The notes beneath the pieces are model-generated. The model did no database searches. It saw nothing but the letters and a program-made list of their open reading frames with translations, and was not told the origin of the DNA. Positions 47,749-59,664 of a stretch of 64,000 nt of DNA are shown here, in pieces. This DNA comes from a virus (Duplodnaviria > Heunggongvirae > Uroviricota > Caudoviricetes > Herelleviridae), in IMG/VR virus record IMGVR_UViG_3300030514_000001, positions 1 through 64,000 of that record; one strand, given 5' to 3'. Made by a program: the position numbers and the translations under genes. Each line of letters begins with the position of its first letter. Position 1 is the first letter of the stretch.

Positions 47749-48666
47749 GTGAGTGCAGTAGCAGAAAAGAAAATTAAAAATTACGATTTAATTGTACAAG
47801 CTAAAGAAGGTTCCGAAGATGCAATGGGGAAACTGTTGAAGGAATACCATAAAATGATTTATAGAGAGGTTTGTAGATTTACAAAAGATAAAGATAAACA
47901 AGATGACTTATATCAAATCGGGGCGTTAGCTCTTATAGAAGCGGTAGACCGATTCGATTTATCCACAGGAAATGAGTTTAGTACATACGTATTTATGCAG
48001 ATTAAAGGGAGAATCATGGTGAATATGCGTGATAATCGTACACTCAAGTTCCCTCGACCTATGGTTGAGCTAGGTTTGAAGATTAAGAAGTACGACTTAG
48101 CTAAAAAGGACATAGAGTACATTTGCGAGTACTTAAATGAAACAGAAGATAAAGTTATGGATGCTTTACTATTCATAGATAGAGAGTATGCATTAAGTAC
48201 ATCAGCTACTATAGACTCTGGTAAAAGCAACAATAAAGACACTATAACAATAGGAGACTCGCTTATTAAGGATGCAAATGGAGAACAGTGGGAAAACGCC
48301 ATTATGCTTAGAAGTTATATTGAACGATTACCAAAGGAAGAGCGTGCAGTAATCAATGCAATGTACATAGAAGACAAACAACGGATTGATGTTAGTAAAG
48401 AAATGGGTACTAACCCTACAAACATAAGTAGAATCGAACAGCGCGCCCTAGCTAACTTACGTAGACTGATAAATGGGGAAGAAGTCGTATATAAGAAAGA
48501 AACTAGAGGAGCTAGTGCAAATAACGCTAAAGGGAACCAAACTCTAGCGAAAGAATTGGTTCGTAAAGGTGAGCTAAAACAAATAGAAATTGCTAATTTA
48601 ACGGGGGTTTCAACAGGTACAATTGGGTACTGGGCTAGAAAGATTCGAAATGGTAAAAAAATTTAA
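47749..48666 (+). CDS. sigma-70 family sigma factor (phage-encoded)
   Basis: Region 2 (DLYQIGALALIEAVDRFD...FSTYVFMQIKGRI) and region 4 (ISRIEQRALANLRRL), plus an extra C-terminal HTH; GTG after AAGAGGAGGAG. Confidence 0.65.
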   Translation: MSAVAEKKIKNYDLIVQAKEGSEDAMGKLLKEYHKMIYREVCRFTKDKDKQDDLYQIGALALIEAVDRFDLSTGNEFSTYVFMQIKGRIMVNMRDNRTLKFPRPMVELGLKIKKYDLAKKDIEYICEYLNETEDKVMDALLFIDREYALSTSATIDSGKSNNKDTITIGDSLIKDANGEQWENAIMLRSYIERLPKEERAVINAMYIEDKQRIDVSKEMGTNPTNISRIEQRALANLRRLINGEEVVYKKETRGASANNAKGNQTLAKELVRKGELKQIEIANLTGVSTGTIGYWARKIRNGKKI

Positions 48667-49907: not shown

Positions 49908-50624
49908 TTGTTACAATTTATAGGACGCGGAAGCGCATTTAACACATTAGAAGGTAACAACAGCGCATATTGCATTCACGAAGGAGAACTATTCCTGATT
50001 GACTGCGGTAGCAACGTATTCGAACGATTAGACCATGCAGGTGTTCTAGGAGTCGTAAAGAATATTAAAGTACTAATCACACATACTCACGATGACCATA
50101 TCGGTTCATTAGGAGGACTCATCTTCCACTCATACTTCAATATGGGTACAATGGGAGAGAAGAATATTACGGTATACGCACCGTACACACTTAAGGTTCC
50201 TAAGATTCTAGATTTAATGGGAGTAACCAGCAAGTATTATCATATTAAACAGTTCGAATCACATATCGAATTAGAGTACGCAAATGACCCTGTATTTGTA
50301 CAAGCTGTACCTAATCATCACGTAGAAGAATTACTATCTTATGGGTACTTACTAGACATTAAAGGTAAGTGCGTATACTACAGTGGAGACTCGAACAATA
50401 TCCATCCATACATATTAGGACGATTAGAAAGTGGAATAATCGATTACTTTTATCAAGACACATGCAAAGCTGATTATGAAGGTAATGTACACTTATCCAT
50501 AAATAAGTTGTGTGAACTAGTAGGAAAGAATCGAGATAAGGTTTACTGCATGCACTTAGATAAAGGATTCCCGGTACAGTGGGTGAAAACATTAGGGTTT
50601 AATGTGGTAGAATCAGTTTTCTAG
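49908..50624 (+). CDS. metallo-beta-lactamase-fold hydrolase
   Basis: ITHTHDDHIGSLG (HxHxDH) motif; TTG after TAAGGAGGAC. Confidence 0.6.
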   Translation: MLQFIGRGSAFNTLEGNNSAYCIHEGELFLIDCGSNVFERLDHAGVLGVVKNIKVLITHTHDDHIGSLGGLIFHSYFNMGTMGEKNITVYAPYTLKVPKILDLMGVTSKYYHIKQFESHIELEYANDPVFVQAVPNHHVEELLSYGYLLDIKGKCVYYSGDSNNIHPYILGRLESGIIDYFYQDTCKADYEGNVHLSINKLCELVGKNRDKVYCMHLDKGFPVQWVKTLGFNVVESVF

Positions 50625-50645
50625 ATACATAGAAGGAGCAATAGA

Positions 50646-50816
50646 ATGGAAGAATATCGTTATGCTGTGGTATATCGCAGTAACCCAAAAGTAAGACTAT
50701 CCAAGACGTTTACACGAAAAGGTGATGCGAAAGCATTTCGAAAGAAACGATTCAATGGGGATAAGGAAACATATAAGATAGCGAAATATAAACTTACATT
50801 AGTTGAGGAGGATTAA
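50646..50816 (+). CDS. hypothetical small basic protein
   Basis: 56 aa; not in the track. Confidence 0.4.
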   Translation: MEEYRYAVVYRSNPKVRLSKTFTRKGDAKAFRKKRFNGDKETYKIAKYKLTLVEED

Positions 50817-50817
50817 G

Positions 50818-51129
50818 TTGTCAAAACCTAAATACGAATATAAACACCCGGTCACACTTGATGTGAAAGTATTCGACCCTGTACTATTCAGTGTAGGCTC
50901 TCCGGTTGTTATGCAGATAGAGACAAGTGACTGGGAACGAATGTACTGGAGAGAAGAATACGGTATTGTAGAAGCCTACAATGAAACTGAGTTACATATC
51001 CTTATGGTAGATTACAACGGACAACCAGAAACAAAAGTTGTACAGATTAGGTTCTTGGATGATAGGTTTAATATCATCCCATTAAAAGAATTAATTAAAG
51101 GATTACAGGAGGAACTAGATGCAAAGTAA
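50818..51129 (+). CDS. hypothetical protein
   Basis: TTG after GAGGAGGAT. Confidence 0.5.
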   Translation: MSKPKYEYKHPVTLDVKVFDPVLFSVGSPVVMQIETSDWERMYWREEYGIVEAYNETELHILMVDYNGQPETKVVQIRFLDDRFNIIPLKELIKGLQEELDAK

Positions 51130-52315
51130 ATTATTCATGCCAAAAACATTAAATGTAGGGTATCAAAATAGACAAGGGACTTACACTGGTAGCCTAGCTT
51201 ACGTCATTTATTACGATGAAACGGGTAAACTACGAAAAGAGACATCATGGGAAAGCTGGAGAGATACGAAGATTCCTAATCAAGAATTTGAAAACGTACC
51301 AACAGAAGGATTCGTGTTCAATAAGACAGGCGGAGGGCGACCATCATGGAGTGACCGTAAAGCATTCTGTCGCGTATACGACCCACGAGGATTCGAATTT
51401 GAGATTGATATGGCTAACTTAATGCACATTCTAGAGTGCTGCGATGTAATGAAGGGTAAAGGTATTGTAGGTGAACTGGTATACGCATGGGAAGGTACAG
51501 AGCTTGTTTTAGTACCTGTAAACTCTGCTACATATGAAGAGTCTAAGAGATACACAGATATCTTAATGAATAAGGAACAAATTAAAGCCAAAGACTTAAA
51601 GGTCGGGTATACATACATCGATAAAGATGAATCGAAGTACATTTACTTAGGTAAGTTTCATGAGTACGATTATAGAACAGATTACAACGACTCGTATAGA
51701 AGACAAAAGGTTACGAAATCTAAAGCTAAGAAATTCTTCTTCGCAGAGGAATGTCGCTGGTCTAGTAATAAGGACTGCCCGTGGATGATTAAAACAGTTA
51801 GCTCTTTAGGTAAGAAGTTCATCAAAGAGTTAGAGGTAGGATGCGTCCAAGACTTCACGCCATTCCAAAACATGTTAGAACATTCTCAATACTATTCACC
51901 AGTTGATTCGAGTAAAGATGAGTTGTATCCAATAGACCCAAAGTTCATTATCGAAAGAGTTCTAGATAAAGAAAAACATACATGGGATAGACGAGTAGGA
52001 TTCTACACGAAAGCTCACGGCGATACGCGTGAATACGATATCGTAATGGAGTCGGTGTATGATAAGCCGTATAGTTGGACTGGAAACAGAGATAGAAAAG
52101 TTATCGGCGTAGAAGCAGTAGTTACACATAGATACGGAGAATACGGTAGAGATAGCGAAGCGTATCGCGGTTCATTAGAAGGCTTCTTTACACGATTCAC
52201 TGGAGACATGGAGCCTTGCTTCATTAAGAGATATTTAGAGAACGATAAGTTCTACTCATTTAAAGGTTCAGTACCAGAACACCAAATAAATAAAGATGAT
52301 AAGGAGCAAAAATAA
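51119..52315 (+). CDS. hypothetical protein
   Basis: RBS CAGGAGGAAC; 398 aa. Confidence 0.55.
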   Translation: MQSKLFMPKTLNVGYQNRQGTYTGSLAYVIYYDETGKLRKETSWESWRDTKIPNQEFENVPTEGFVFNKTGGGRPSWSDRKAFCRVYDPRGFEFEIDMANLMHILECCDVMKGKGIVGELVYAWEGTELVLVPVNSATYEESKRYTDILMNKEQIKAKDLKVGYTYIDKDESKYIYLGKFHEYDYRTDYNDSYRRQKVTKSKAKKFFFAEECRWSSNKDCPWMIKTVSSLGKKFIKELEVGCVQDFTPFQNMLEHSQYYSPVDSSKDELYPIDPKFIIERVLDKEKHTWDRRVGFYTKAHGDTREYDIVMESVYDKPYSWTGNRDRKVIGVEAVVTHRYGEYGRDSEAYRGSLEGFFTRFTGDMEPCFIKRYLENDKFYSFKGSVPEHQINKDDKEQK

Positions 52316-52737
52316 TGACAAACTCAAATGATGCAGTAGTATTACAATTACAAGGTAAGGTTGAAGAGAAGAAAAAGAAATTAGCAGCTTTAAAGAAGAA
52401 CCGTCACACATCTACAACAAAGTGTATTCTTGAATGGGAAGGTAAAAACATTAACTTTAACGTAGCTGGGAAGGACGAGCTTACCCTCTTATTAGTTAAA
52501 ATCCATACATTGTTTGTAGCTGCGGATGACTTACTATTAGAAGACTTCGGAGATACAAAGGTACAAGGTCATACACTAGATGAATGGATTCAAGACATCA
52601 AAGGTAAAATCAAGGAGAAAGATATTGCAATCCAAGAAAAAGAACTTAAGATGATTGAAGCACAACTTGATAAGATGTTGTCAGAAGATAAGAAAACAGA
52701 ATTAAAGTTAAAAGAAATTGCAGACCTATTAAACTAG
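52315..52737 (+). CDS. hypothetical coiled-coil protein
   Basis: RBS TAAGGAGCAAAA. Confidence 0.55.
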   Translation: MTNSNDAVVLQLQGKVEEKKKKLAALKKNRHTSTTKCILEWEGKNINFNVAGKDELTLLLVKIHTLFVAADDLLLEDFGDTKVQGHTLDEWIQDIKGKIKEKDIAIQEKELKMIEAQLDKMLSEDKKTELKLKEIADLLN

Positions 52738-52744
52738 TACAACA

Positions 52745-52774
52745 GGCACGGGATACGCTCTCGTGTCTTTCTTT
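52745..52774 (+). terminator. rho-independent terminator (moderate)
   Basis: GGCACGGG...CTCGTGTC stem with G-U pairs plus TTTCTTT. Confidence 0.45.
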
Positions 52775-52788
52775 ATGTGTAAAAGTAA

Positions 52789-52828
52789 TACTTTTTAAAC
52801 TTTTTTATAACTTTTTACGATTTTGTGG
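52789..52828. repeat. phased CTTTTT(T)A repeats (about 10-bp period) upstream of the actin-like gene
   Basis: ACTTTTTAAA / CTTTTTTATAA / CTTTTTACGA / TTTTGTGG, units starting at 52791, 52800, 52811. Confidence 0.4.
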
Positions 52829-52887
52829 TATCAAATAGGCGAATGCTCCATATGATGTATTAAGAAATCACAAAGGGGGAAAACAAA

Positions 52888-53979
52888 ATGACAAAGAAAT
52901 GGCAAGGAACTAGCGTAGGTTTATCTGTAGGTGCAGTAGATGATGGGTTCGGAGATGTAAAATGTGACAACAACGGTCATCCATTCTTAATTCCTTCATT
53001 CGTAACAAACTTTAAAGAGAAACCATCTACAGAGTTTGTAGTAGAAGGTAAGCAGTTAGAATACATCGCTTGTGAAATTGATGGTAAGAAATATGTAGTC
53101 GGAGATTATGCTACAAAGTTAGACCCGGATATTGAATGGACTGGAGGAGAAAATAAACATAATGATAATAAGTTTCCGATTATTATGAAAACTGTTTTAG
53201 GTCTTATGAGCAAGGGTACAAATGAAACCATCTACACACTTATGATGAACTTACCAATTAAGAACGATACACCAGAACGTAGAGAACAACTTACACAACT
53301 TGTAAAAGGTACACATGAGATGAAAATCTCATACGACGGTATCAACTGGATAGAAAGAACAGTCACAGTTGAAGATGTATGTATCAAGAAACAACCGTTC
53401 GGCTCTTTATGTGACCTAATGCTAGACAACAACGGAGAAATCGTTGACCATAACATTGCAAAAGGATTTAACGTATTAGCGGATATTGGAGCAAGAACTT
53501 TGAATGTTCTGACATTGGATTCATTAGAAGAACAACCGGAGCTAACGACTCATACGAACATGGGTATGTTTAGTAGCTACCTACAAATCGGTAAGTACTT
53601 AGAGAATCAACTAGGAGCTACGATTCCAGATGGAAAGTTACCAATGATTATCAAGAATAAAGAAATAAAAGGTATGGACATCACACCAGTCATCAATCAA
53701 GCTTATGAAAATCATGCGAATACCATCCTTAATACACTGGACAGAATACTTATTAATAGCTGGGCTTTTGTAGATACAATCATCTTTACTGGTGGAGGCT
53801 CTGAACTACTCAAACAATACTTATCAGAAAGATTCGCTAACAGAGGAGTTAAGGTGTTGTTCCTAGATAGATACGCAAATGTGCGCGGTTTAAGGAAGTA
53901 CGGGGCACGTATGGCATCGAAAGCGAAGAAGAGTACAGTTACTATTAAAGTCGGCACACAGCCGTATATTAGTAAATGA
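52888..53979 (+). CDS. actin-like ATPase (ParM/StbA/Alp-type)
   Basis: Phosphate-1-like LSVGAVDDGFGDVK, phosphate-2-like ADIGARTLNV, adenosine motif IIFTGGGSELL; 363 aa; RBS AAAGGGGGAAAAC. Confidence 0.6.
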   Translation: MTKKWQGTSVGLSVGAVDDGFGDVKCDNNGHPFLIPSFVTNFKEKPSTEFVVEGKQLEYIACEIDGKKYVVGDYATKLDPDIEWTGGENKHNDNKFPIIMKTVLGLMSKGTNETIYTLMMNLPIKNDTPERREQLTQLVKGTHEMKISYDGINWIERTVTVEDVCIKKQPFGSLCDLMLDNNGEIVDHNIAKGFNVLADIGARTLNVLTLDSLEEQPELTTHTNMGMFSSYLQIGKYLENQLGATIPDGKLPMIIKNKEIKGMDITPVINQAYENHANTILNTLDRILINSWAFVDTIIFTGGGSELLKQYLSERFANRGVKVLFLDRYANVRGLRKYGARMASKAKKSTVTIKVGTQPYISK

Positions 53980-53989
53980 GGTGACTTAA

Positions 53990-54256
53990 ATGCGAAAGTC
54001 AGTCTACCTTCGAGATAAGATGGATGATGACATACTAGAAGTCATTAAGCCATTACTAAAGAACCATAGCTTTGCACATGTAATGAGGGAACTAGCTAGA
54101 GATGGAATCAAGTATAGAAAAGGGGAAGGAGGTGTCGTGTATCCTAAAGTCATACAAAGTGTGACACCTGTAGAATCGGCTCCAATACAAGATGTAAAAT
54201 TAGTCAAAAAAGAAGCATCTGACAAGGATATCGAAAGCAGATTAGATAGTTTCTAA
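53990..54256 (+). CDS. small putative DNA-binding protein (ribbon-helix-helix-like; ParR-like adaptor candidate)
   Basis: N-terminal KSVYLRDKMDDDILEVI beta-strand/helix pattern; 88 aa directly downstream of the actin-like gene. Confidence 0.4.
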   Translation: MRKSVYLRDKMDDDILEVIKPLLKNHSFAHVMRELARDGIKYRKGEGGVVYPKVIQSVTPVESAPIQDVKLVKKEASDKDIESRLDSF

Positions 54257-54261
54257 CAAAA

Positions 54262-54298
54262 CAAAAAGCACATCAGACGACATGCTTCCAAGTTTTAT
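54262..54298. terminator. bidirectional terminator between convergent genes
   Basis: Imperfect palindrome AAGCACAT...ATGTGCTT flanked by T-tracts on both strands; contains the stop codon of the minus-strand HNH gene. Confidence 0.5.
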
Positions 54299-55006
54299 AA
54301 TTTACAATCTGAGATATGTTCTTTCTTACCACATTAAACATATCACCTAATTGTTGATGGGTGTATTGACCTGTACTATGTAATCTTCTGATTTCTCTAA
54401 CTTTATCTTCTGTAAGTTTAGCTGCGTTGGAAGATGTAGGCTGTTTAGAGATAACTGGCTCGTCAACTAAATTAAGATGTTTCCATGTCCTTCCTTTAAT
54501 CACAGCGTCCACCGTACTATCCGTAACATCAAACTGAGCGCTTATTTGTGCTACAGAGAATCTACCTGATTTATACATTTCGACTATCTTATGTACTTTG
54601 TCTTCACTTAACTTACGATTGTGACTCGATTCACCTAAACCCACACTAAGCAACCCGGTATTTACTGCATGTTGTGTGTTTTCCGAAGGTGTGACCCACT
54701 CTAAGTTTGATAGTTCGAAGTTCCGCTTATTACCGTCCTTATGGTTTATGTGCGGCTTATTTAAAGGGTTAGGGATAAAGACGATTGCTAGTAATCTGTG
54801 TAAGAGATAACTTTTAGACACTTTGTTGTGTGTTAGTGTCACTTTAGGATATCTCTTGTCGCTTTAGGATATCTCTTGTCGCTTACGGGGTTTGAAACGC
54901 TAATCATTTTACCTTTACTAATATTCTTAACCTTACCTGTGTTACTTATTTCGTAGTTGTCTCCACATTCAACGACACCCTCTAACGGTTTCCATACTTC
55001 TGTCAT
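54273..55006 (-). pseudogene. free-standing HNH homing endonuclease (NUMOD-like N-terminus + HNH core + HTH), frame-disrupted by a 20-bp tandem duplication
   Basis: Minus strand: ATG at 55006 with GAGGGA RBS encodes MTEVWKPLEGVVECGDNYEISNTGKV...; that frame stops inside the duplicated 20-mer. Removing one copy joins it in-frame to the HNH body (ORF 54273-54842: HKDGNKRNF...NLEWVT). Confidence 0.65.
54842..54881. repeat. perfect 20-bp tandem duplication (CTTTAGGATATCTCTTGTCG x2) inside the HNH endonuclease gene
   Basis: Two identical adjacent 20-mers read directly from the sequence. Confidence 0.9.
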
Positions 55007-55082
55007 AATATTGATTCCCTCTTTCTTATGGTATATCTCTATTATAACATACTTCGAAAATAAATCGGGGGAGGCTACTTTT

Positions 55083-55196
55083 GAAATTCCCTTGCGAGAA
55101 AAACAGAAATGTTCGGGAAAAACAAAACGTTGATTTAACGCTATTTTCCCGATATTAGATAGGGAAAAACGTTAATTCCCTGCGTAATTCCCGCAT
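55083..55196. promoter_or_regulatory. cluster of GGGAAAAAC / AATTCCC direct and inverted repeats in a non-coding region (candidate operator / recognition locus)
   Basis: CGGGAAAAAC (55113), inverted TTTTCCCG (55145), GGGAAAAACGTTAATTCCC partial palindrome (55162), AATTCCCTTGCG / AATTCCCTGCG / AATTCCCGCA repeats; six GGGAA/TTCCC cores in about 110 bp with no ORF. Confidence 0.45.
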
Positions 55197-55216
55197 TTAT
55201 AATAGGGTTATAACGG

Positions 55217-55378
55217 TTAATTCACTATCCCGTAATCATGTAAAACTTTTAAAATCTGCTCTAATTCTTCCATACTAATATCCACGTCTCTATCCTTGTT
55301 GATGTCGTGAAGAACTAAATGATTTACTTTCTGCATTTGTCTCTCATACTGAGCTAAAGAATCTGTGAACCAAGACAT
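55217..55378 (-). CDS. hypothetical small protein (minus strand)
   Basis: 53-aa ORF, one of only two minus-strand coding regions; weak RBS. Confidence 0.3.
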   Translation of the reverse strand: MSWFTDSLAQYERQMQKVNHLVLHDINKDRDVDISMEELEQILKVLHDYGIVN

Positions 55379-55456
55379 ATAATCATCGTCCTCTCTTGTT
55401 TGATATTTCTATCGTTACCAAAAATAAAAAACTTATACATGAAGGAGGAAAAAATT

Positions 55457-55648
55457 ATGGGTATCGTAGCTGTAGGTGCTGGAATCGCGTTAGTTTGTAC
55501 AACTGGAATGGCATTATCAACGGTGTTTAAGTTTCTTCATTCATTCGAAATGGAAGTTGGGGTGAAAAAGGAGAAGCGCGGAAGAGGTAGAGATGTTAAT
55601 GAGGAACGTTTTGAGAACATGGCTAATCGTGCAAGATTAAACAAATAA
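55457..55648 (+). CDS. small membrane protein with a basic C-terminal tail
   Basis: ATG after GAAGGAGGAAAAAATT; N-terminal TM GIVAVGAGIALVCTTGMAL, then KKEKRGRGR. Confidence 0.5.
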   Translation: MGIVAVGAGIALVCTTGMALSTVFKFLHSFEMEVGVKKEKRGRGRDVNEERFENMANRARLNK

Positions 55649-55662
55649 AGGAGATGTTAACG

Positions 55663-56190
55663 ATGATTATTAATTACGATGCGAAAAATAAAGCTGCTTG
55701 GGTTGAGTACACTCCATTCACAAAAGCTCCAATGGTAGATGAGTCGGTTTTTATGTACCAAAATATAAAGGAGGAGATAATGAGCGCAAAGGGTATGCAG
55801 AAGCTCAAAAAAATAAAGAAAGCAAAAAAGATAATCAAAATGTCACTATCAATATTAGGAGCAAGCGCGGGTCTTTCGACGAGAGCATTTGCGAGTGGGG
55901 TAACAGGGAAAACACCTCTACTGGCTCCATTCACACCGAGCGTAATGGTGGAGTACGGGTTGCAAGTAGCCTTTCTAGCGGTGGGTGTAGCAGTAGCATT
56001 AAGTATCGTCCTACTAGTCATAGCGGGAGTACTGAGAATGTTCAGAAAGAGCCAAGAAGCGAACGTATGGACGCAAGACATCATCAAAGGGATAACGCAA
56101 GTACTGATAAGCGTTCCAAGCATTTACATCATCTATCGGGTCGCAAGTTACTTATTCAGAAATTTAAACTTCTTAAGTCTAGGCTTCTAA
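55663..56190 (+). CDS. membrane protein with an internal signal-peptide-like segment and TM
   Basis: ATG 9 nt after AAAGGAG; a strong internal RBS (AAGGAGGAG) precedes the ATG at 55780, which would yield a 136-aa protein with a K-rich n-region, h-region, AFA|S and a TM. Confidence 0.45.
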   Translation: MIINYDAKNKAAWVEYTPFTKAPMVDESVFMYQNIKEEIMSAKGMQKLKKIKKAKKIIKMSLSILGASAGLSTRAFASGVTGKTPLLAPFTPSVMVEYGLQVAFLAVGVAVALSIVLLVIAGVLRMFRKSQEANVWTQDIIKGITQVLISVPSIYIIYRVASYLFRNLNFLSLGF

Positions 56191-57293
56191 AGATTGGAGC
56201 GATACCAGCAGCAACTATCTCTACATTCTTCTTTACTTCTATAGGAGATAAAGCATACGCGGAAACGATTAGTAATGATTCATTCTTTGATAAAGGTAAG
56301 AGCATGTTCTCTGGGTTCATCAAAGATACATTAATACCTACAGGAACACCAAACCCTATAAAAGAAGTAATGGATTGGTTCGGGGAGTTCGTCACTCTTA
56401 TTAAAGACTTACCGCACAATGTAGCGAAGATGTCCGCAGAGCTGTTGTCTTGGATATACGACTTATGCGCTGGACTTATCTTAAAGACTCCTCTGTTCTT
56501 ATTCGATAATGAATGGTTTACAACAATGAGTTTAGGATTTAGCGGAGTATCTATAGGGATTGTAGTTGTTCTTACTGTTGTAGAATGCATTAAAAGAATG
56601 TTATCTGGAGCAAATAAGAAGCTAAGACCGATGGAGTTTTCTACAATTATGAAACGCTGGTCACTTATGGCGGGTGTCACATCGGTAACGCCTTTCTTGT
56701 TCAAGTCCGCATTCAAATTATTAAATCTCATCTCTGGCAAACTTACAAGTATGGGTAGCGAAATTATGACAGCTAGTGCCTTGACTATTACATTTAGTAC
56801 GATTGATGTTATCACATTGTTAGTATTCGATGCGATACTGATTTCTACAGTTATTCCGATGTTATGGACGAATGGAAGAAGATTTTTTGACCTATTGGTA
56901 TTAGGCGTAGTAGCTCCTGTCGCATTAGTATGTTGGGTATTTGATTCACATAGGCATTTCTTCAATCAATGGTTCAATAATGTCAAACATCTATCTCTTG
57001 TGCAAGTCTATCACTCTCTATTCCTACTAATTATCGGGTTATTCATCTTCGGTATCCCGTTCCCAGCCGACTTCACAGGTACAATCGTTAAGTTGCTCGT
57101 TGTAATCGGAGGCTTTGCTCGTATGCAGAACCCACCTAAAATCATTGCAAACAAATTAGATAATGGGAAGGGATTAGATGAAGTAATGAAGAGTAATGTA
57201 AAAGAGACATCTAAAAAGTTAATTAAGAACTTTGCAATGTCAAAAGCTACAATTTTAAGTCCGTTAGCGTTATTTAAGAAAATTAAAAAATAA
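56067..57293 (+). CDS. polytopic integral membrane protein (>=7 TM)
   Basis: 408 aa; K/R-rich segment then hydrophobic core ending AYA (signal-peptide-like), then about 7 TM helices; overlaps the upstream gene by 124 nt in another frame, so the start is uncertain. Confidence 0.5.
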   Translation: MDARHHQRDNASTDKRSKHLHHLSGRKLLIQKFKLLKSRLLKIGAIPAATISTFFFTSIGDKAYAETISNDSFFDKGKSMFSGFIKDTLIPTGTPNPIKEVMDWFGEFVTLIKDLPHNVAKMSAELLSWIYDLCAGLILKTPLFLFDNEWFTTMSLGFSGVSIGIVVVLTVVECIKRMLSGANKKLRPMEFSTIMKRWSLMAGVTSVTPFLFKSAFKLLNLISGKLTSMGSEIMTASALTITFSTIDVITLLVFDAILISTVIPMLWTNGRRFFDLLVLGVVAPVALVCWVFDSHRHFFNQWFNNVKHLSLVQVYHSLFLLIIGLFIFGIPFPADFTGTIVKLLVVIGGFARMQNPPKIIANKLDNGKGLDEVMKSNVKETSKKLIKNFAMSKATILSPLALFKKIKK

Positions 57294-57305
57294 GGAGAGG
57301 TTCTT

Positions 57306-57419
57306 ATGAGTATCACAACACTGATTTTACTGAATACAACGATGTTATTGGCGACTGCTGCTGTGAATGCTGTGCAATGTGTAATCATTATGAAGGAGTT
57401 GAAGCATCGTGAAGAGTAA
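57306..57419 (+). CDS. small hydrophobic peptide
   Basis: 37 aa, RBS TAAGGAGAGG; not in the track. Confidence 0.3.
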   Translation: MSITTLILLNTTMLLATAAVNAVQCVIIMKELKHREE

Positions 57420-59664
57420 AGGATACAAGAACATATCGAACTACTTCTCGCAGATTGAGGATGTATCAGGAGCCTTTAAAACCATCTTAGAACAAGAGAC
57501 AGACGGTGTATTCGGTATAGAGCTGGAGATGTATAAAGGAGGGCGTAATATTACAGTGGTTACGCCCCCACATATCCGTTTTAATGAAACGAACGTTCTA
57601 CCTTATCGTTTAACGTTAGTAGCGCGTCATACAGACGACTTACATGCTTATGAAGGTTATCTATCTAAACCCTCGTTCTTACCGTTGTACGAGGGCATGA
57701 GAGGCTTATTATTACGTGAATTACTGGAGATACAAGTAGGAGAGGATGAAGCACTAGAAATCCAGTGGCTATTCAAGAGATATGTAGATAATTGGCTCCT
57801 AACTTCTATAGAAAGGTATAAGAGTTACTTGAGTGGGAATGAATACCCTGCTGGTTCTAAAATAGGAAGAACATTTCAAGATAAAATCCTTCACGCTATC
57901 AATAAGTTATCATCATTTGATATGGCTCGAACATATAGTGAGAAAGTGGAACAGAAGATTGTTGGTAAAGTGTATAAATTCAAACTAGGAATCACCATTC
58001 GTTCTAAGGAACCTACGGCGCTCGTACAGCAGATTGAAACTATACTACGTAAATACGATTCGCATAATACGGTAAGCTTGTACAAGAGGAAGTTAAAGGG
58101 CTTAAAAGATGAATGTGAGGAAAGACTAGTTATGAACGGGGAGAATGTACTGAGTGATACAGAGATTGTATCCTTATTCGGTGGAACAGTAGTAGCTCCC
58201 CAAGAAGTTGAACACGCTCAATCTGTTACTACTGCACCGAATAAAGTTAGAACACCTAGAAAGGATATCGGAGGTCTAGTCTCGTTGTTGCCTACATATC
58301 CAAGAGAAGAAGTGAAAGTGGATGAAAATATTGTGAGCTACCTAGCCGAAGCCATGAAGCGTGTAGGTCTGATTCCAACAGCGAGACTAGCGAATAGTAC
58401 TGTCACAGCGGGTGCGCGGTTGACTGTTATTCAATGTGATATACCTAAGAAGAAGAACTTAAGTCATCTTATTTCAAAGGCTTCCGATATCCAAGCAGCA
58501 CTAGGAGTCCCTTCTCTTAGTATAGAACAAGGTGAGGAACCTGATACTGCCAAATTTACCCTACCAAACGAAGAAGCAGCCGTTATCAGCCTTAGAGAGC
58601 TTATAGAGAGTCCAGACTTCCAAGAGTACGCGAGTAATCATGCGTTACCATTTATAGTAGGTGTTGATGAAGTAGATACACCAATCTATCTAGACTTGAC
58701 AAAGCTCGTACATCTTATGATTGCAGGTACAACGGGTTCTGGTAAATCTGTATTTATGAATACACTAATCATTTGTCTCATGGCTACGAACTCACCAGAG
58801 ATGTTACGGTTTGTCATGATTGACCCTAAAATAGTAGAACTGGCTCAATACGAAGGGATGGCGCACGTAGATAAGATTGTAACGGATATGGAGAAAGCAG
58901 GGGAAGCACTCAATAAGCTAGTAGAAGAAATGGAGAAGCGATATGAAACGTTTAAGGATGCAGGAGTTAAAAATATAAAGGTCTACAATGAAGTAGCAGA
59001 CTGTAAAATGCCTTATATCGTATGTGTGATTGATGAATACGCAGACCTACATGATACAAACCCACATGTAGAAGAGTATGTCACACGACTAGGACAGAAA
59101 GCCCGTGCTGCTGGAATCCATTTAGTTATCGCTACACAAAGACCGGATGCAAAGGTAATCAGTGGACGTATCAAAGCAAATGTGCAGAATGCAATCAGTT
59201 TCAATTTAAACAGTAATGTAGATTATAAAACAGTATTCGGTAAAGGTATAGGAAATACGACTCTGCTGGGTCGTGGAGATGGTGTCATGAGAATAGTAGC
59301 TCACCCTAAAGAGTTCCAGAGATTCCAGAGCGCTATTGTATCTCCTAATGAAGTGGAAGAAGGTAAAGTGTATCAAAAGATTAGGGATTACTTTGGTGGA
59401 GAGTTAGTCGAAGAGGAGATAGAAGAAACAGAAGAAGTTGATACAGAGGAACCGTTAGTGAAGCTTAAAAAGATTATCGCTCGTACTAGGGAGACGAAGG
59501 TAGGTAGGCTTAGAGAACTCATGGGAATCAAAGCAGAAGTATTAACAGACCTCATGGGTAAGTTAGTGGAAGAAGGTTGGCTCATCAAACACGCTTCTAA
59601 GACAAAAGGATATGAGCTAATCATTCCAGAAGAGATGTTAAACGAATATAAAGGTGATTGGTAA
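57409..59664 (+). CDS. FtsK/SpoIIIE-family DNA translocase-like ATPase (soluble N-domain + motor + gamma-like wHTH)
   Basis: Walker A MIAGTTGSGKS, Walker B VCVIDEYADL, RAAGIHLVIATQRPD motif, C-terminal ETKVGRLRELMGIKAEVLTDLMGKLVEEGWL winged-helix; no TM in the 751 aa. Confidence 0.8.
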   Translation: MKSKGYKNISNYFSQIEDVSGAFKTILEQETDGVFGIELEMYKGGRNITVVTPPHIRFNETNVLPYRLTLVARHTDDLHAYEGYLSKPSFLPLYEGMRGLLLRELLEIQVGEDEALEIQWLFKRYVDNWLLTSIERYKSYLSGNEYPAGSKIGRTFQDKILHAINKLSSFDMARTYSEKVEQKIVGKVYKFKLGITIRSKEPTALVQQIETILRKYDSHNTVSLYKRKLKGLKDECEERLVMNGENVLSDTEIVSLFGGTVVAPQEVEHAQSVTTAPNKVRTPRKDIGGLVSLLPTYPREEVKVDENIVSYLAEAMKRVGLIPTARLANSTVTAGARLTVIQCDIPKKKNLSHLISKASDIQAALGVPSLSIEQGEEPDTAKFTLPNEEAAVISLRELIESPDFQEYASNHALPFIVGVDEVDTPIYLDLTKLVHLMIAGTTGSGKSVFMNTLIICLMATNSPEMLRFVMIDPKIVELAQYEGMAHVDKIVTDMEKAGEALNKLVEEMEKRYETFKDAGVKNIKVYNEVADCKMPYIVCVIDEYADLHDTNPHVEEYVTRLGQKARAAGIHLVIATQRPDAKVISGRIKANVQNAISFNLNSNVDYKTVFGKGIGNTTLLGRGDGVMRIVAHPKEFQRFQSAIVSPNEVEEGKVYQKIRDYFGGELVEEEIEETEEVDTEEPLVKLKKIIARTRETKVGRLRELMGIKAEVLTDLMGKLVEEGWLIKHASKTKGYELIIPEEMLNEYKGDW

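What the first reader, a model, noticed from the sequence alone, without database searches (positions are those of the whole stretch)
52786..54256. Plasmid-partition-like cassette in a lytic phage: phased T-tract iterons, an actin-like ParM/Alp ATPase and a small RHH-like protein
The 363-aa protein has the actin-fold signature spacing: phosphate-1 VGAVDDGFGDVK, phosphate-2 DIGARTLNV and adenosine IIFTGGGSE. It is followed immediately by an 88-aa protein whose N-terminus fits a ribbon-helix-helix DNA binder (ParR-like). Upstream lie three or four CTTTTT units with a period of about 10 bp, a parC-like arrangement. Phage-encoded actin-like filaments for genome positioning are rare and poorly characterised. 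This trio may position replicating phage DNA or segregate it during sporulation.
Basis: partly seen in the sequence, partly recalled or inferred. Interest (0 to 1): 0.65.

Follow-up and report, generated by a model that had tools for sequence, protein, structure and literature searches.

The report
Phage ParM and ParR-like partition cassette
This Bacillus phage carries an actin-like ParM motor gene followed by a small DNA-binding adaptor gene, the kind of pair plasmids use to distribute their copies; the pair is real, but it is already annotated in dozens of related phages and was linked to unstable lysogeny in a sister genus, so it is mostly known.

Summary
The window comes from a Bequatrovirus (Bastillevirinae, Herelleviridae), about 95% identical in nucleotides to phages B4 and Spock. 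ORF 52888-53979 is a ParM/StbA actin-like ATPase. It is already annotated "ParM/partition protein" in GenBank. ORF 53990-54256 is its conserved partner, found in 163 of 177 ParM-carrying phage records. It has an N-terminal domain predicted as ribbon-helix-helix, a variable linker and a conserved C-terminal helix, which is the ParR/adaptor layout.

The three ACTTTTT units upstream are real and unique, both in the window and in a whole congeneric genome. They are conserved only in Bequatrovirus and Bastillevirus, so they are a poor candidate for the family's centromere. It consists of TTYCC(C/G) units in direct and inverted orientation, is unique genome-wide, and follows the adaptor gene in every Bastillevirinae genus sampled. 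In this window a split HNH gene separates it from the adaptor gene.

Citing papers report that Yuan et al. 2015 tied the homologous actin-like protein of phages Bp8p-C/T to unstable lysogeny. I confirmed a truncating 2-bp deletion in Bp8p-C parM. Verdict: a real, ordinary and largely known ParMR-type cassette, with the centromere still unassigned.

The parts
52744..52768 (+). Terminator-like hairpin plus T-run that closes the upstream operon. It marks parM-parR as a separate transcription unit.
   Evidence: 10-bp stem, T-rich tail. An equivalent hairpin or annotated terminator lies upstream of parM in Spock, Troll, Bc431v3 and Grass.
52785..52791 (+). GTAATAC box. At least one GTRAYAC box lies in the parM promoter/leader region of every lineage sampled. 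A degenerate inverted copy, GTATTAA, is at 52857-52863.
   Evidence: 14 observed against 0.78 expected over 9 lineages. The motif was defined post hoc. The same heptamer is the core of the 14 x 10-bp iterons upstream of parM on plasmid pPLP3.
52790..52824 (+). Three ACTTTTT units (52790, 52799, 52810) plus a degenerate fourth (ACGATTTT, 52817). They are phased at about one helical turn, just upstream of the promoter-like core.
   Evidence: unique in the window; unique in the Troll genome; genus-restricted: 4 copies in Troll and vB_BcgM, 2 in Hoody T, 1 in Bc431v3, 0 elsewhere.
52847..52863 (+). Conserved promoter-like core, TCCATATGATGTATTAA: a CCATA(T/A) box followed by a GTATWAY box. The sigma class is unknown. 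No sigma-70-type consensus promoter lies upstream of parM.
   Evidence: Seen by eye across the upstream regions printed. The sigma-70 scan found no site between 52738 and 52887.
52888..53979 (+). parM: a 363-aa actin-like ATPase of the ParM/StbA family.
   Evidence: Pfam ALP_N 2e-17, MreB-like_C 3e-23, Alp7A_like_C 3e-7. PDB 3js6 ParM 2e-11, pCBH ParM 6e-8. phrog_691 "partition protein" 3e-115. NCBIfam ParM model 1e-22, below its equivalog cut-off. Nucleotide-binding motifs invariant.
53990..54256 (+). parR-like adaptor, 88 aa. Residues 1-45 form a predicted ribbon-helix-helix domain, 46-69 a variable low-complexity linker, and 70-88 a conserved C-terminal helix (KLvKKEaSdkDIEsRLDsF-COOH).
54273..55006 (-). 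Inserted NUMOD4/HNH homing-endonuclease gene, split by a 20-bp tandem duplication (54837-54876). It is not part of the cassette, but it separates parR from the repeat array in this phage.
   Evidence: Pfam NUMOD4 and HNH_3. Duplication. Absent at this site in B4, Spock and Troll, present in vB_BcgM.
55084..55210 (.). Array of TTYCC(C/G) units in both orientations. ATTCCC at 55086, 55175 and 55187; TTTCCC at 55145; GGGAAA at 55115 and 55162; degenerate GAGAAAAAC at 55096 and GGGTTA at 55205. This is the best candidate for the centromere or operator bound by the adaptor.
   Evidence: 6 of the window's 63 matches lie within 107 nt. (the only window of 110 nt with more than 3 units in this 64 kb, and likewise in the 163-kb Troll genome). 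(a homologous array after parR in Spock, Troll, Hoody T, Bc431v3, Grass, Bp8p-T, Goe8, Shbh1, L017, L024 and L025; in L023 two small ORFs further on).

Best explanation
The locus is a type II (ParM/ParR-like) DNA-positioning cassette that is a core module of Bastillevirinae phages.

Proposed mechanism:
- ParM (52888-53979) polymerises with ATP into actin-like filaments.
- The 88-aa protein dimerises through an N-terminal ribbon-helix-helix domain. It binds cooperatively to an array of short repeats on the phage genome and holds that DNA to the filament through its conserved C-terminal helix.
- The filaments then move or separate phage genomes that persist as extrachromosomal copies. This gives the unstable-lysogeny or carrier behaviour reported for relatives. 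It may also place genomes so that they are inherited at division or trapped in spores.
- The binding array is most likely the TTYCC(C/G) cluster at 55084-55210 rather than the upstream T-tracts. I read the T-tracts as a lineage-specific, probably bent, upstream promoter element.

Shown here: gene identities, the predicted fold, the domain layout, conservation and gene linkage, and the existence and uniqueness of the repeats. Also shown: the two Bp8p phages, which a published study contrasted for lysogeny, differ by a truncating mutation in this gene.

Inferred: polymerisation, DNA binding, which repeat is bound, the tail-ParM contact, and the biological role in this particular phage.
For: ParM identity. 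Catalytic motifs are invariant across about 25-100% identity.

Operon layout: a 10-nt gap and the same strand. The pair co-occurs in 163 of 177 phage records and in distant metagenomic, plasmid and genome relatives.

Adaptor:
- RHH-type prediction with pLDDT 92.
- The family profile aligns to the NikR RHH in the correct register (E 0.72, weak).
- The layout is a conserved N-domain, a variable linker and a conserved extreme C-terminus.

Array:
- It is unique in the window and in the Troll genome.
- It is present after parR in all Bastillevirinae lineages sampled, with the same layout: a block of direct units, then inverted units, a spacer of roughly 20-65 nt in the lineages where one is resolved, then more inverted units.
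- It is retained where the downstream M23 peptidase gene is absent.
- Jenst-like relatives carry classical iteron arrays upstream of parM whose cores are similar in flavour (TTCACCT, TTAACCC). Their adaptors share the R-x-(S/N)-x-Y-L-R strand with this protein.

Biology:
- PMC8026635 lists Bp8p-C as a plasmid prophage with a ParM-like protein plus an adapter.
- I found that Bp8p-C parM has a 2-bp deletion that truncates it at about residue 134, while Bp8p-T is intact. This is the only difference in 1.65 kb.
- Bcp1, which carries the pair, yields persistent asporogenous lysogens of B. anthracis (PMC2716549).
Against: - No binding, polymerisation or segregation was tested.
- The array is not welded to parR. 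An HNH gene here and in vB_BcgM, and two mini-ORFs in L023, lie between them. In M23-peptidase lineages the array flanks what looks like that gene's promoter. It could therefore be the operator of another regulator.
- A downstream centromere is atypical for type II systems.
- The closest plasmid homologue, pPLP3, has GTAATAC-type iterons. GTRAYAC boxes sit in every Bastillevirinae parM promoter region, which favours a different binding site.
- The iterons in Jenst-like relatives lie next to a replication-initiator gene and could belong to that instead.
- No parMR-less relative exists to serve as a negative control.
Confidence: 0.6

Rival explanations
1. One reading: the phased ACTTTTT units (52790-52824) are the parC-like centromere and operator bound by the RHH protein, as in R1 or pSK41, where the iterons lie upstream of parM.
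For: The position is canonical for type II systems. The array is unique in the window and in the Troll genome. Copy number changes in whole units, 3 against 4, between close relatives. The period is about one helical turn. pPLP3 iterons include T-rich units such as TTTTTAATAC and TTTTTATTAC, which resemble TTTTTTATAAC and TTTTTAAAC here.
Against: The units are absent from Grass, Bp8p-T, Goe8, Shbh1, L017, L023, L024 and L025, whose adaptors keep nearly the same DNA-reading strand. A weight matrix built from the pPLP3 iterons does not single out this region in the window. Three to four copies are few for a segrosome. Phased A/T tracts upstream of the -35 region are a common feature of Bacillus promoters; this rests on my own knowledge of Helmann 1995 and was not checked here.
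Confidence: 0.15
2. The adaptor binds the GTRAYAC boxes in the parM promoter/leader, giving autoregulation and tethering. The TTYCC(C/G) array then belongs to a different protein.
For: At least one box lies in the parM upstream region in all nine lineages, 14 observed against 0.78 expected. In Shbh1 there are 4-6 units at 10-bp phase. The closest plasmid relative, pPLP3, has 14 tandem 10-bp GTAATAC-type iterons at the canonical place.
Against: This phage has only one perfect and one degenerate copy. The first box sits at a near-fixed distance from the CCATAT box in several lineages, so it may be a promoter core element. The pPLP3 adaptor has a different N-terminal strand, FPMNLRLR against RKSVYLR. 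The motif was defined post hoc.
Confidence: 0.2
3. The cassette serves lytic growth rather than plasmid-like inheritance. As with AlpC/AlpA of prophage CGP3 or PhuZ of jumbo phages, the filaments would place replicating genomes at a favourable site and raise replication or packaging efficiency.
For: AlpA/AlpC tether phage DNA to actin-like filaments and are needed for efficient replication (PMC4446434). The pair is a core gene set of a subfamily regarded as virulent (PMC7409376). No integrase was seen near the locus.
Against: The only phenotype reported for this family concerns lysogeny and plaque type rather than burst. This explanation is not exclusive of the best explanation.
Confidence: 0.3
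4. The TTYCC(C/G) array is an operator, or a replication origin, unrelated to ParR. It would control the downstream M23-peptidase / DUF7394 / membrane-protein / FtsK-SpoIIIE genes through another phage regulator. The adaptor would then be only an autorepressor, or the cassette would lack a dedicated centromere.
For: In M23 lineages the array flanks a TATA-rich core just upstream of the M23 peptidase gene. In L023 it stays with that gene when ORFs are inserted after parR. Unit spacing of 7-9 nt is off the helical repeat.
Against: The array is retained in Bequatrovirus, Bastillevirus and Caeruleovirus, where no plus-strand gene follows before a conserved convergent gene. In Goe8 an HNH insertion leaves it with parR. 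It is unique in the genome. Tightly packed direct and inverted short units are how the RHH protein omega binds; this rests on my own knowledge, supported by the title of PDB entry 2bnw.
Confidence: 0.3

Closest known systems
Actin-like protein (gp27) and downstream adapter of Bacillus pumilus phages Bp8p-T and Bp8p-C (Agatevirus, Bastillevirinae; Yuan et al. 2015, Appl Environ Microbiol 81:339; not readable here)
   Same: It is the same gene family and the same synteny: parM, then the adaptor, then a TTTCCC array. ParM is 62% identical and the adaptor about 44% identical. The reported phenotype, an effect on unstable lysogeny, is the likeliest role here. Bp8p-C carries a truncating 2-bp deletion in parM.
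   Different: It belongs to a different genus and host. The upstream T-tract units are absent there. The adapter is labelled HTH in PMC8026635, whereas I predict RHH. I could not check whether that paper mapped a centromere.
pSK41 / R1 ParMRC type II plasmid partition systems
   Same: An actin-like ParM is followed by a small adaptor gene. The best solved relative is 3js6, named only "ParM" by the tool; I recall it as pSK41 ParM. The adaptor has an N-terminal RHH and a C-terminal tail, the ParR architecture as I know it from the ParR literature.
   Different: Identity to plasmid ParMs is only about 23-25%. The adaptor matches no known ParR family. There is no multi-iteron parC upstream overlapping the promoter. 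The best array candidate lies downstream of parR. The replicon is a roughly 160-kb myovirus.
ParM/StbA plus adaptor of Paenibacillus larvae plasmid pPLP3 and of Jenst-like Brevibacillus phages (SecTim467, contig L016)
   Same: These are homologous ParMs (41% and 31% identity) with homologous adaptors directly downstream.
   Different: They have the canonical layout: 14 or more iterons at 10-11-bp phase upstream of parM (GTAATAC, TTCACCT and TTAACCC types). In the Jenst-like elements these lie next to a replication-initiator gene. There is no downstream array.
AlpC/AlpA of Corynebacterium prophage CGP3
   Same: It is a phage-encoded actin-like protein with a co-transcribed DNA-binding adaptor that tethers phage DNA to filaments (PMC4446434).
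   Different: The gene order is reversed, with the adaptor first. No sequence relationship to this adaptor family was found here. The binding repeats (alpS) lie near the alpAC promoter. The demonstrated role is replication efficiency of an excised prophage.
Omega (RHH) of pSM19035 with its heptad arrays
   Different: Omega works with a Walker-type ParA (delta), not an actin-like motor. There is no detectable sequence similarity.

Membership tests
ParM/StbA actin-like ATPases (ALP superfamily) | Actin-fold domains recognised by family profiles | tested here: met
   Pfam ALP_N 64 bits (cut-off 26.3), MreB-like_C 83 bits (27.8), Alp7A_like_C 30.6 bits (22). phrog_691 "partition protein" 3e-115. 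The NCBIfam ParM equivalog scores only 81 bits against a cut-off of 417, so it is a family member, not an equivalog of R1 ParM.
ParM/StbA actin-like ATPases (ALP superfamily) | Conserved phosphate-1, phosphate-2 and adenosine nucleotide-binding motifs | tested here: met
   DDGFGDVK, DIGARTLN and FTGGGS align with solved ParM 3js6 and are invariant in 11 homologues.
ParM/StbA actin-like ATPases (ALP superfamily) | Closer to ParMs than to Hsp70, sugar kinases, MreB or FtsA | tested here: met
   All significant PDB hits are ParMs or the archaeal actin Ta0583. There is no Hsp70 or kinase hit at E <= 1.
ParM/StbA actin-like ATPases (ALP superfamily) | Nucleotide-dependent polymerisation into filaments | not testable with these tools
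   This needs purified protein with EM or light scattering, or GFP imaging.
Type II (ParMRC) partition system | Small adaptor gene immediately downstream of parM, on the same strand, co-conserved with it | tested here: met
   10-nt gap. Found in 163 of 177 phage records, and in every distant relative examined.
Type II (ParMRC) partition system | Adaptor with an N-terminal ribbon-helix-helix DNA-binding domain | tested here: inconclusive
Type II (ParMRC) partition system | Adaptor C-terminal tail that docks on ParM | not testable with these tools
   A conserved C-terminal helix (K74, L85, D86, F88 nearly invariant) behind a disordered linker is compatible with this. No complex prediction or binding test was possible.
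Type II (ParMRC) partition system | parC: multiple iterons upstream of parM, overlapping its promoter | tested here: not met
   Only 3-4 lineage-specific T-tract units and 1-2 GTRAYAC boxes lie upstream. The multi-unit array lies downstream of parR. Plasmid-like relatives do meet this feature.
Type II (ParMRC) partition system | Stabilises or segregates the replicon that carries it | not testable with these tools
   The only indirect support is the published link of the Bp8p homologue to unstable lysogeny and the truncating mutation in Bp8p-C.
Known ParR / centromere-binding protein sequence families (Pfam, NCBIfam) | Significant match to a curated ParR, ParG, CopG or RHH model | tested here: not met
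   There is no hit for this protein. Among 100 family members there are only single sub-threshold hits to RHH_3 (0.0096), RHH_1 (0.073) and Plasmid_stab_B (0.073). PHROGs files it as phrog_3536, unknown function.

The most novel reading that the evidence does not exclude
The unique TTYCC(C/G) array downstream of parR is the centromere, and it embeds the promoter of the next operon: M23 peptidase in most genera, then DUF7394, membrane proteins and an FtsK/SpoIIIE translocase. Binding by the RHH adaptor would then do two things. It would hitch the phage genome to ParM filaments, and it would gate a DNA-translocase module. Together these would form a phage-encoded device that delivers or retains the genome of a nominally virulent myovirus in dividing or sporulating Bacillus cells (carrier state, virospores). 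This would be a type II system with an inverted parM-parR-parC order, coupled to a translocase.
Probability: 0.15. Interest if true: 0.7.

Novelty: already known. Interest (0 to 1): 0.3.

Why it matters
Bastillevirinae phages are promoted as strictly virulent biocontrol agents against the Bacillus cereus group. A conserved, apparently functional plasmid-type partition cassette is the most concrete genomic explanation for the reports that some of them persist as unstable lysogens.

Two results here give cheap, direct experiments for a system whose mechanism is still undescribed. The first is that the partner protein is a ParR-like RHH adaptor; it is annotated "hypothetical" in every GenBank record examined here and is of unknown function in PHROGs. 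The second is the identification of one genome-unique repeat array as its likely target. The gene identities themselves add nothing new.

Tried and rejected
- A weight matrix built from the 14 pPLP3 iterons and scanned over the window did not single out the parM upstream region. It gave 2-3 hits per 60 nt, like other AT-rich spots. I therefore dropped the idea that the T-tracts are recognisably homologous to those iterons.
- Sequence routes to an RHH assignment failed or were weak:
  - phmmer and hmmsearch against the PDB;
  - Pfam on 37 and on 100 family members;
  - NCBIfam;
  - hhalign of the full alignment against a small RHH alignment, which matched linker columns only;
  - hhalign of the trimmed N-domain, which gave the right register but P = 0.02.
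- The sigma-70 consensus scan found no promoter upstream of parM. A resemblance of the CATA-N3-T box to mother-cell sporulation promoters is recollection only and was not pursued.
- The viral-contig scan with ParM gave only 4 near-identical loci, so I sampled diversity through GenBank phage records instead.
- I looked for a relative that has the downstream DUF7394 gene but lacks parMR, to use as a negative control for the array. I found none.
- Rfam found no RNA family in 50000-58000.
- The similarity between the parM Shine-Dalgarno region (GGGGGAAAACAAAATG) and one array unit is not conserved in vB_BcgM. I set it aside as probable chance.
- Yuan et al. 2015 (PMC4272706) is not held in the library, so its content is known only through citing papers.
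Full report
**What the window is.** Megablast of 52300-55400 finds only Bacillus phages. The best matches are B4/B5S (95%), Spock and Flapjack (about 95%), then Troll, BigBertha and others (86-88%). GenBank places these in Herelleviridae, Bastillevirinae, genus Bequatrovirus. About 29% of the query is missing from most relatives. That part is the HNH gene at 54273-55006, which only vB_BcgM and a few others carry at this site.

**Checking the observation.** The two ORFs are as described: 52888-53979 (363 aa) and 53990-54256 (88 aa), 10 nt apart on the + strand. They are invariant in 11 homologues spanning roughly 25-100% identity.

ACTTTTT occurs at 52790, 52799 and 52810, with a degenerate fourth unit at 52817. 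The paired pattern occurs only here in 64 kb, against 0.03 expected. A phased triple T5 occurs only here, against 0.09 expected. In the complete 163-kb genome of the congener Troll, the equivalent 4-unit array is also the only one.

**The ATPase.**
- Pfam gives ALP_N, MreB-like_C and Alp7A_like_C, all above their cut-offs.
- PHROGs gives phrog_691, "partition protein".
- The NCBIfam ParM model matches at 1e-22, far below its equivalog cut-off.
- The best solved relatives are ParMs: 3js6, pCBH ParM, and the Clostridium and Desulfitobacterium ParMs, plus archaeal Ta0583. No Hsp70 or sugar kinase appears.

It is not news, however. Orthologues 96-99.7% identical are annotated "ParM", "partition protein" or "plasmid segregation protein" in many records. 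The Grass genome announcement in 2013 already remarked on a ParM gene of unknown role (PMC3853049). The Bc431v3 paper listed gp105 as a putative segregation protein (PMC3601020).

**The small protein.** It has no Pfam, NCBIfam or PDB sequence match, and PHROGs files it under unknown function. It is nonetheless a tight partner of ParM.
- tblastn finds it in 163 phage records, against 177 for ParM. These cover all Bastillevirinae genera and Jenst-like Brevibacillus phages.
- An exhaustive profile search finds 105 clusters at 50% identity.
- Every distant member whose context I fetched lies directly downstream of an ALP_N/MreB-like_C gene.

Alignments show three parts:
- a conserved N-domain (R-x-S-x-Y-L-R ... 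D-x-D-I-L ... F-A-H-V-M-R-E-L-A-R-D-G-I-K-Y-R);
- a linker variable in length and composition;
- a conserved extreme C-terminus (K-L-x-K-K-E-x-S-x-x-D-I-E-x-R-L-D-x-F).

**Which DNA does it bind? The T-tracts.** I compared the region upstream of parM in eleven and later fourteen lineages. The ACTTTTT units number 4 in Troll and vB_BcgM and 3 here and in Spock. There are 2 in Hoody T (Bastillevirus), 1 in Bc431v3 (Caeruleovirus), and none in Grass, Bp8p-T, Goe8, Shbh1, L017, L023, L024 and L025. The putative DNA-reading strand of the adaptor barely changes across these lineages. A site that most of the family lacks is unlikely to be the family's centromere.

The tracts sit immediately upstream of a conserved promoter-like core, CCATA(T/A) followed by GTATWAY. 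No sigma-70 consensus promoter is present.

**The GTRAYAC boxes.** A second upstream element is more widely conserved. At least one GTRAYAC box lies in every parM promoter/leader region, 14 observed against 0.78 expected, with the motif chosen post hoc. There are up to six units at 10-bp phase in Shbh1. The same heptamer is the core of 14 perfect-phase 10-bp iterons upstream of parM on P. larvae plasmid pPLP3. That plasmid carries the closest plasmid homologue (41% identity) and a homologous adaptor. This window has only one exact copy (52785) and one degenerate inverted copy (52857). The pPLP3 adaptor also has a different N-terminal strand.

**The TTYCC(C/G) array.** Between 55084 and 55210 lie six WTTCCC/GGGAAW units plus degenerate ones, in both orientations. 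The whole window holds 63 such hexamers on both strands, so about 0.1 is expected in that span. No other 110-nt window in the 64 kb exceeds 3 units. The same is true genome-wide in Troll, where the single cluster of 6 lies right after parR.

Homologous arrays follow the adaptor's stop codon within a few to a few tens of nucleotides in Spock, Troll, Hoody T, Bc431v3 (TTACCC units), Grass, Bp8p-T, Goe8 (GTTTCCC), Shbh1, L017, L024 and L025. They are 5-8 fold enriched over locus background. They share one layout: 3-5 direct units spaced 7-9 nt, then one or two inverted units, a spacer of about 20-65 nt, then two or three inverted units. Here and in vB_BcgM an HNH gene has been inserted between parR and the array.

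**Caveats on the array.**
- In M23-peptidase lineages it flanks a TATA-rich core that looks like that gene's promoter.
- In L023 it stays with the M23 gene when two mini-ORFs are inserted after parR.
- A downstream centromere is not the type II norm.
- The Jenst-like iterons adjoin a replication-initiator gene.
- No parMR-less relative exists as a control.

On the other side, the array persists in the three genera that have no plus-strand gene before a conserved convergent 53-aa gene. I put about 45-50% on the array being the adaptor's main target.

**What it is for.** The library does not hold Yuan et al. 2015, but citing papers are explicit. [quoted passage not shown] Bp8p-C is tabulated as a plasmid prophage with a ParM-like protein and an adapter (PMC8026635). 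The Herelleviridae taxonomy paper notes that the strictly virulent lifestyle is "somewhat disputed", citing that work and Schuch and Fischetti 2009 (PMC7409376).

Bp8p-C/T are Agatevirus members of the same subfamily, with the same parM-adaptor-array synteny. Aligning 1.65 kb of the two phages, I found a single difference: a 2-bp deletion in Bp8p-C that truncates ParM after about 134 residues. Bcp1 also carries the pair and gives persistent, asporogenous B. anthracis lysogens (PMC2716549).

The most likely role is therefore positioning or partition of extrachromosomal phage genomes during a carrier or unstable-lysogenic state. A role in lytic replication, as for AlpC/AlpA (PMC4446434), is not excluded. 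The neighbourhood makes a link to sporulation attractive but untested. It includes a sigma-70-family gene at 47749-48666 and an FtsK/SpoIIIE gene at 57409-59664, and sigF/G-like genes lie next to parM in Bc431v3. Spore entrapment of phage genomes is an established phenomenon (PMC9429907).

**Comparison and membership.** The cassette works like a type II ParMRC system and meets the tests for the motor and for gene organisation. The adaptor meets the fold test only at prediction level and belongs to no curated ParR family. The defining upstream multi-iteron parC is not present. I file it as a ParM/ParR-like system of the Bastillevirinae type, the same family as the Bp8p system, not as an orthologue of R1 or pSK41 ParMRC.

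**Verdict.** The core claim is already known from annotation and from one experimental paper on a sister genus. What may be new, and is unproven, is the RHH assignment of the adaptor (annotated "hypothetical" in every GenBank record examined here) and the genome-unique TTYCC(C/G) array as the candidate centromere. Interest 0.3.

Noticed in passing
window 54273-55006 (-), repeat at 54837-54876: A NUMOD4/HNH homing-endonuclease gene is split into a 55-aa and a 189-aa ORF by a perfect-phase 20-bp tandem duplication (TGTCACTTTAGGATATCTCT / TGTCGCTTTAGGATATCTCT). Removing one copy restores a single ORF of about 243 aa. The gene is absent from this site in B4, Spock and Troll and present in vB_BcgM. 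It is either a recently inactivated mobile gene or an assembly artefact.
   Followed up: partly
L022 (Bp8p-C) against L011 (Bp8p-T), parM: Bp8p-C parM has a 2-bp deletion (CACACCTTATC to CACA--TTATC) that truncates the protein after about 134 residues. It is the only difference in 1.65 kb between the two phages.
   Followed up: yes
L015 3754-3893 (P. larvae plasmid pPLP3); L013 about 1066-1240 (Brevibacillus phage SecTim467); L016 about 2660-2800: Relatives with a plasmid-like context carry textbook iteron arrays upstream of parM. pPLP3 has 14 x 10-bp GTAATAC-type units. The other two have TTCACCT or TTAACCC units at 11-bp phase in two inverted blocks, next to a replication-initiator gene.
   Followed up: partly
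window 52847-52863 and the equivalent sites in L007-L012, L014, L017, L023-L025: All parM genes are preceded by a conserved CCATA(T/A) box and then a GTATWAY box, without a sigma-70-type -35/-10 pair. The CATA-N3-T core recalls mother-cell (sigma E/K) sporulation promoters. This rests on memory only and was not tested.
   Followed up: no
window 55217-55378 (-): A 53-aa gene convergent with parR (phrog_5065, unknown function) is conserved in every lineage. This includes those where it overlaps the 3' end of an M23 peptidase gene.
   Followed up: partly
window 55400-59664 (+): Downstream of the array lie a DUF7394 small membrane protein, two multi-pass membrane proteins and a 751-aa FtsK/SpoIIIE-family translocase. 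The same order is kept across the subfamily, with an M23 peptidase gene added in most genera.
   Followed up: partly
window 47749-48666 (+): There is a sigma-70-family sigma factor gene (regions 2 and 4) about 4 kb upstream of parM. In Bc431v3, sigF/sigG-like genes lie immediately upstream of parM.
   Followed up: no
window 52875-52890 against 55114-55129: The parM ribosome-binding region, GGGGGAAAACAAAATG, closely resembles one array unit with its flank, CGGGAAAAACAAAACG. The match is not conserved in vB_BcgM, so it is probably chance. It could be an operator half-site.
   Followed up: partly
L023 2778-3065: In one metagenomic lineage two CxxC-rich mini-ORFs (46 and 44 aa) are inserted between the adaptor gene and the TTCCC array.
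   Followed up: no
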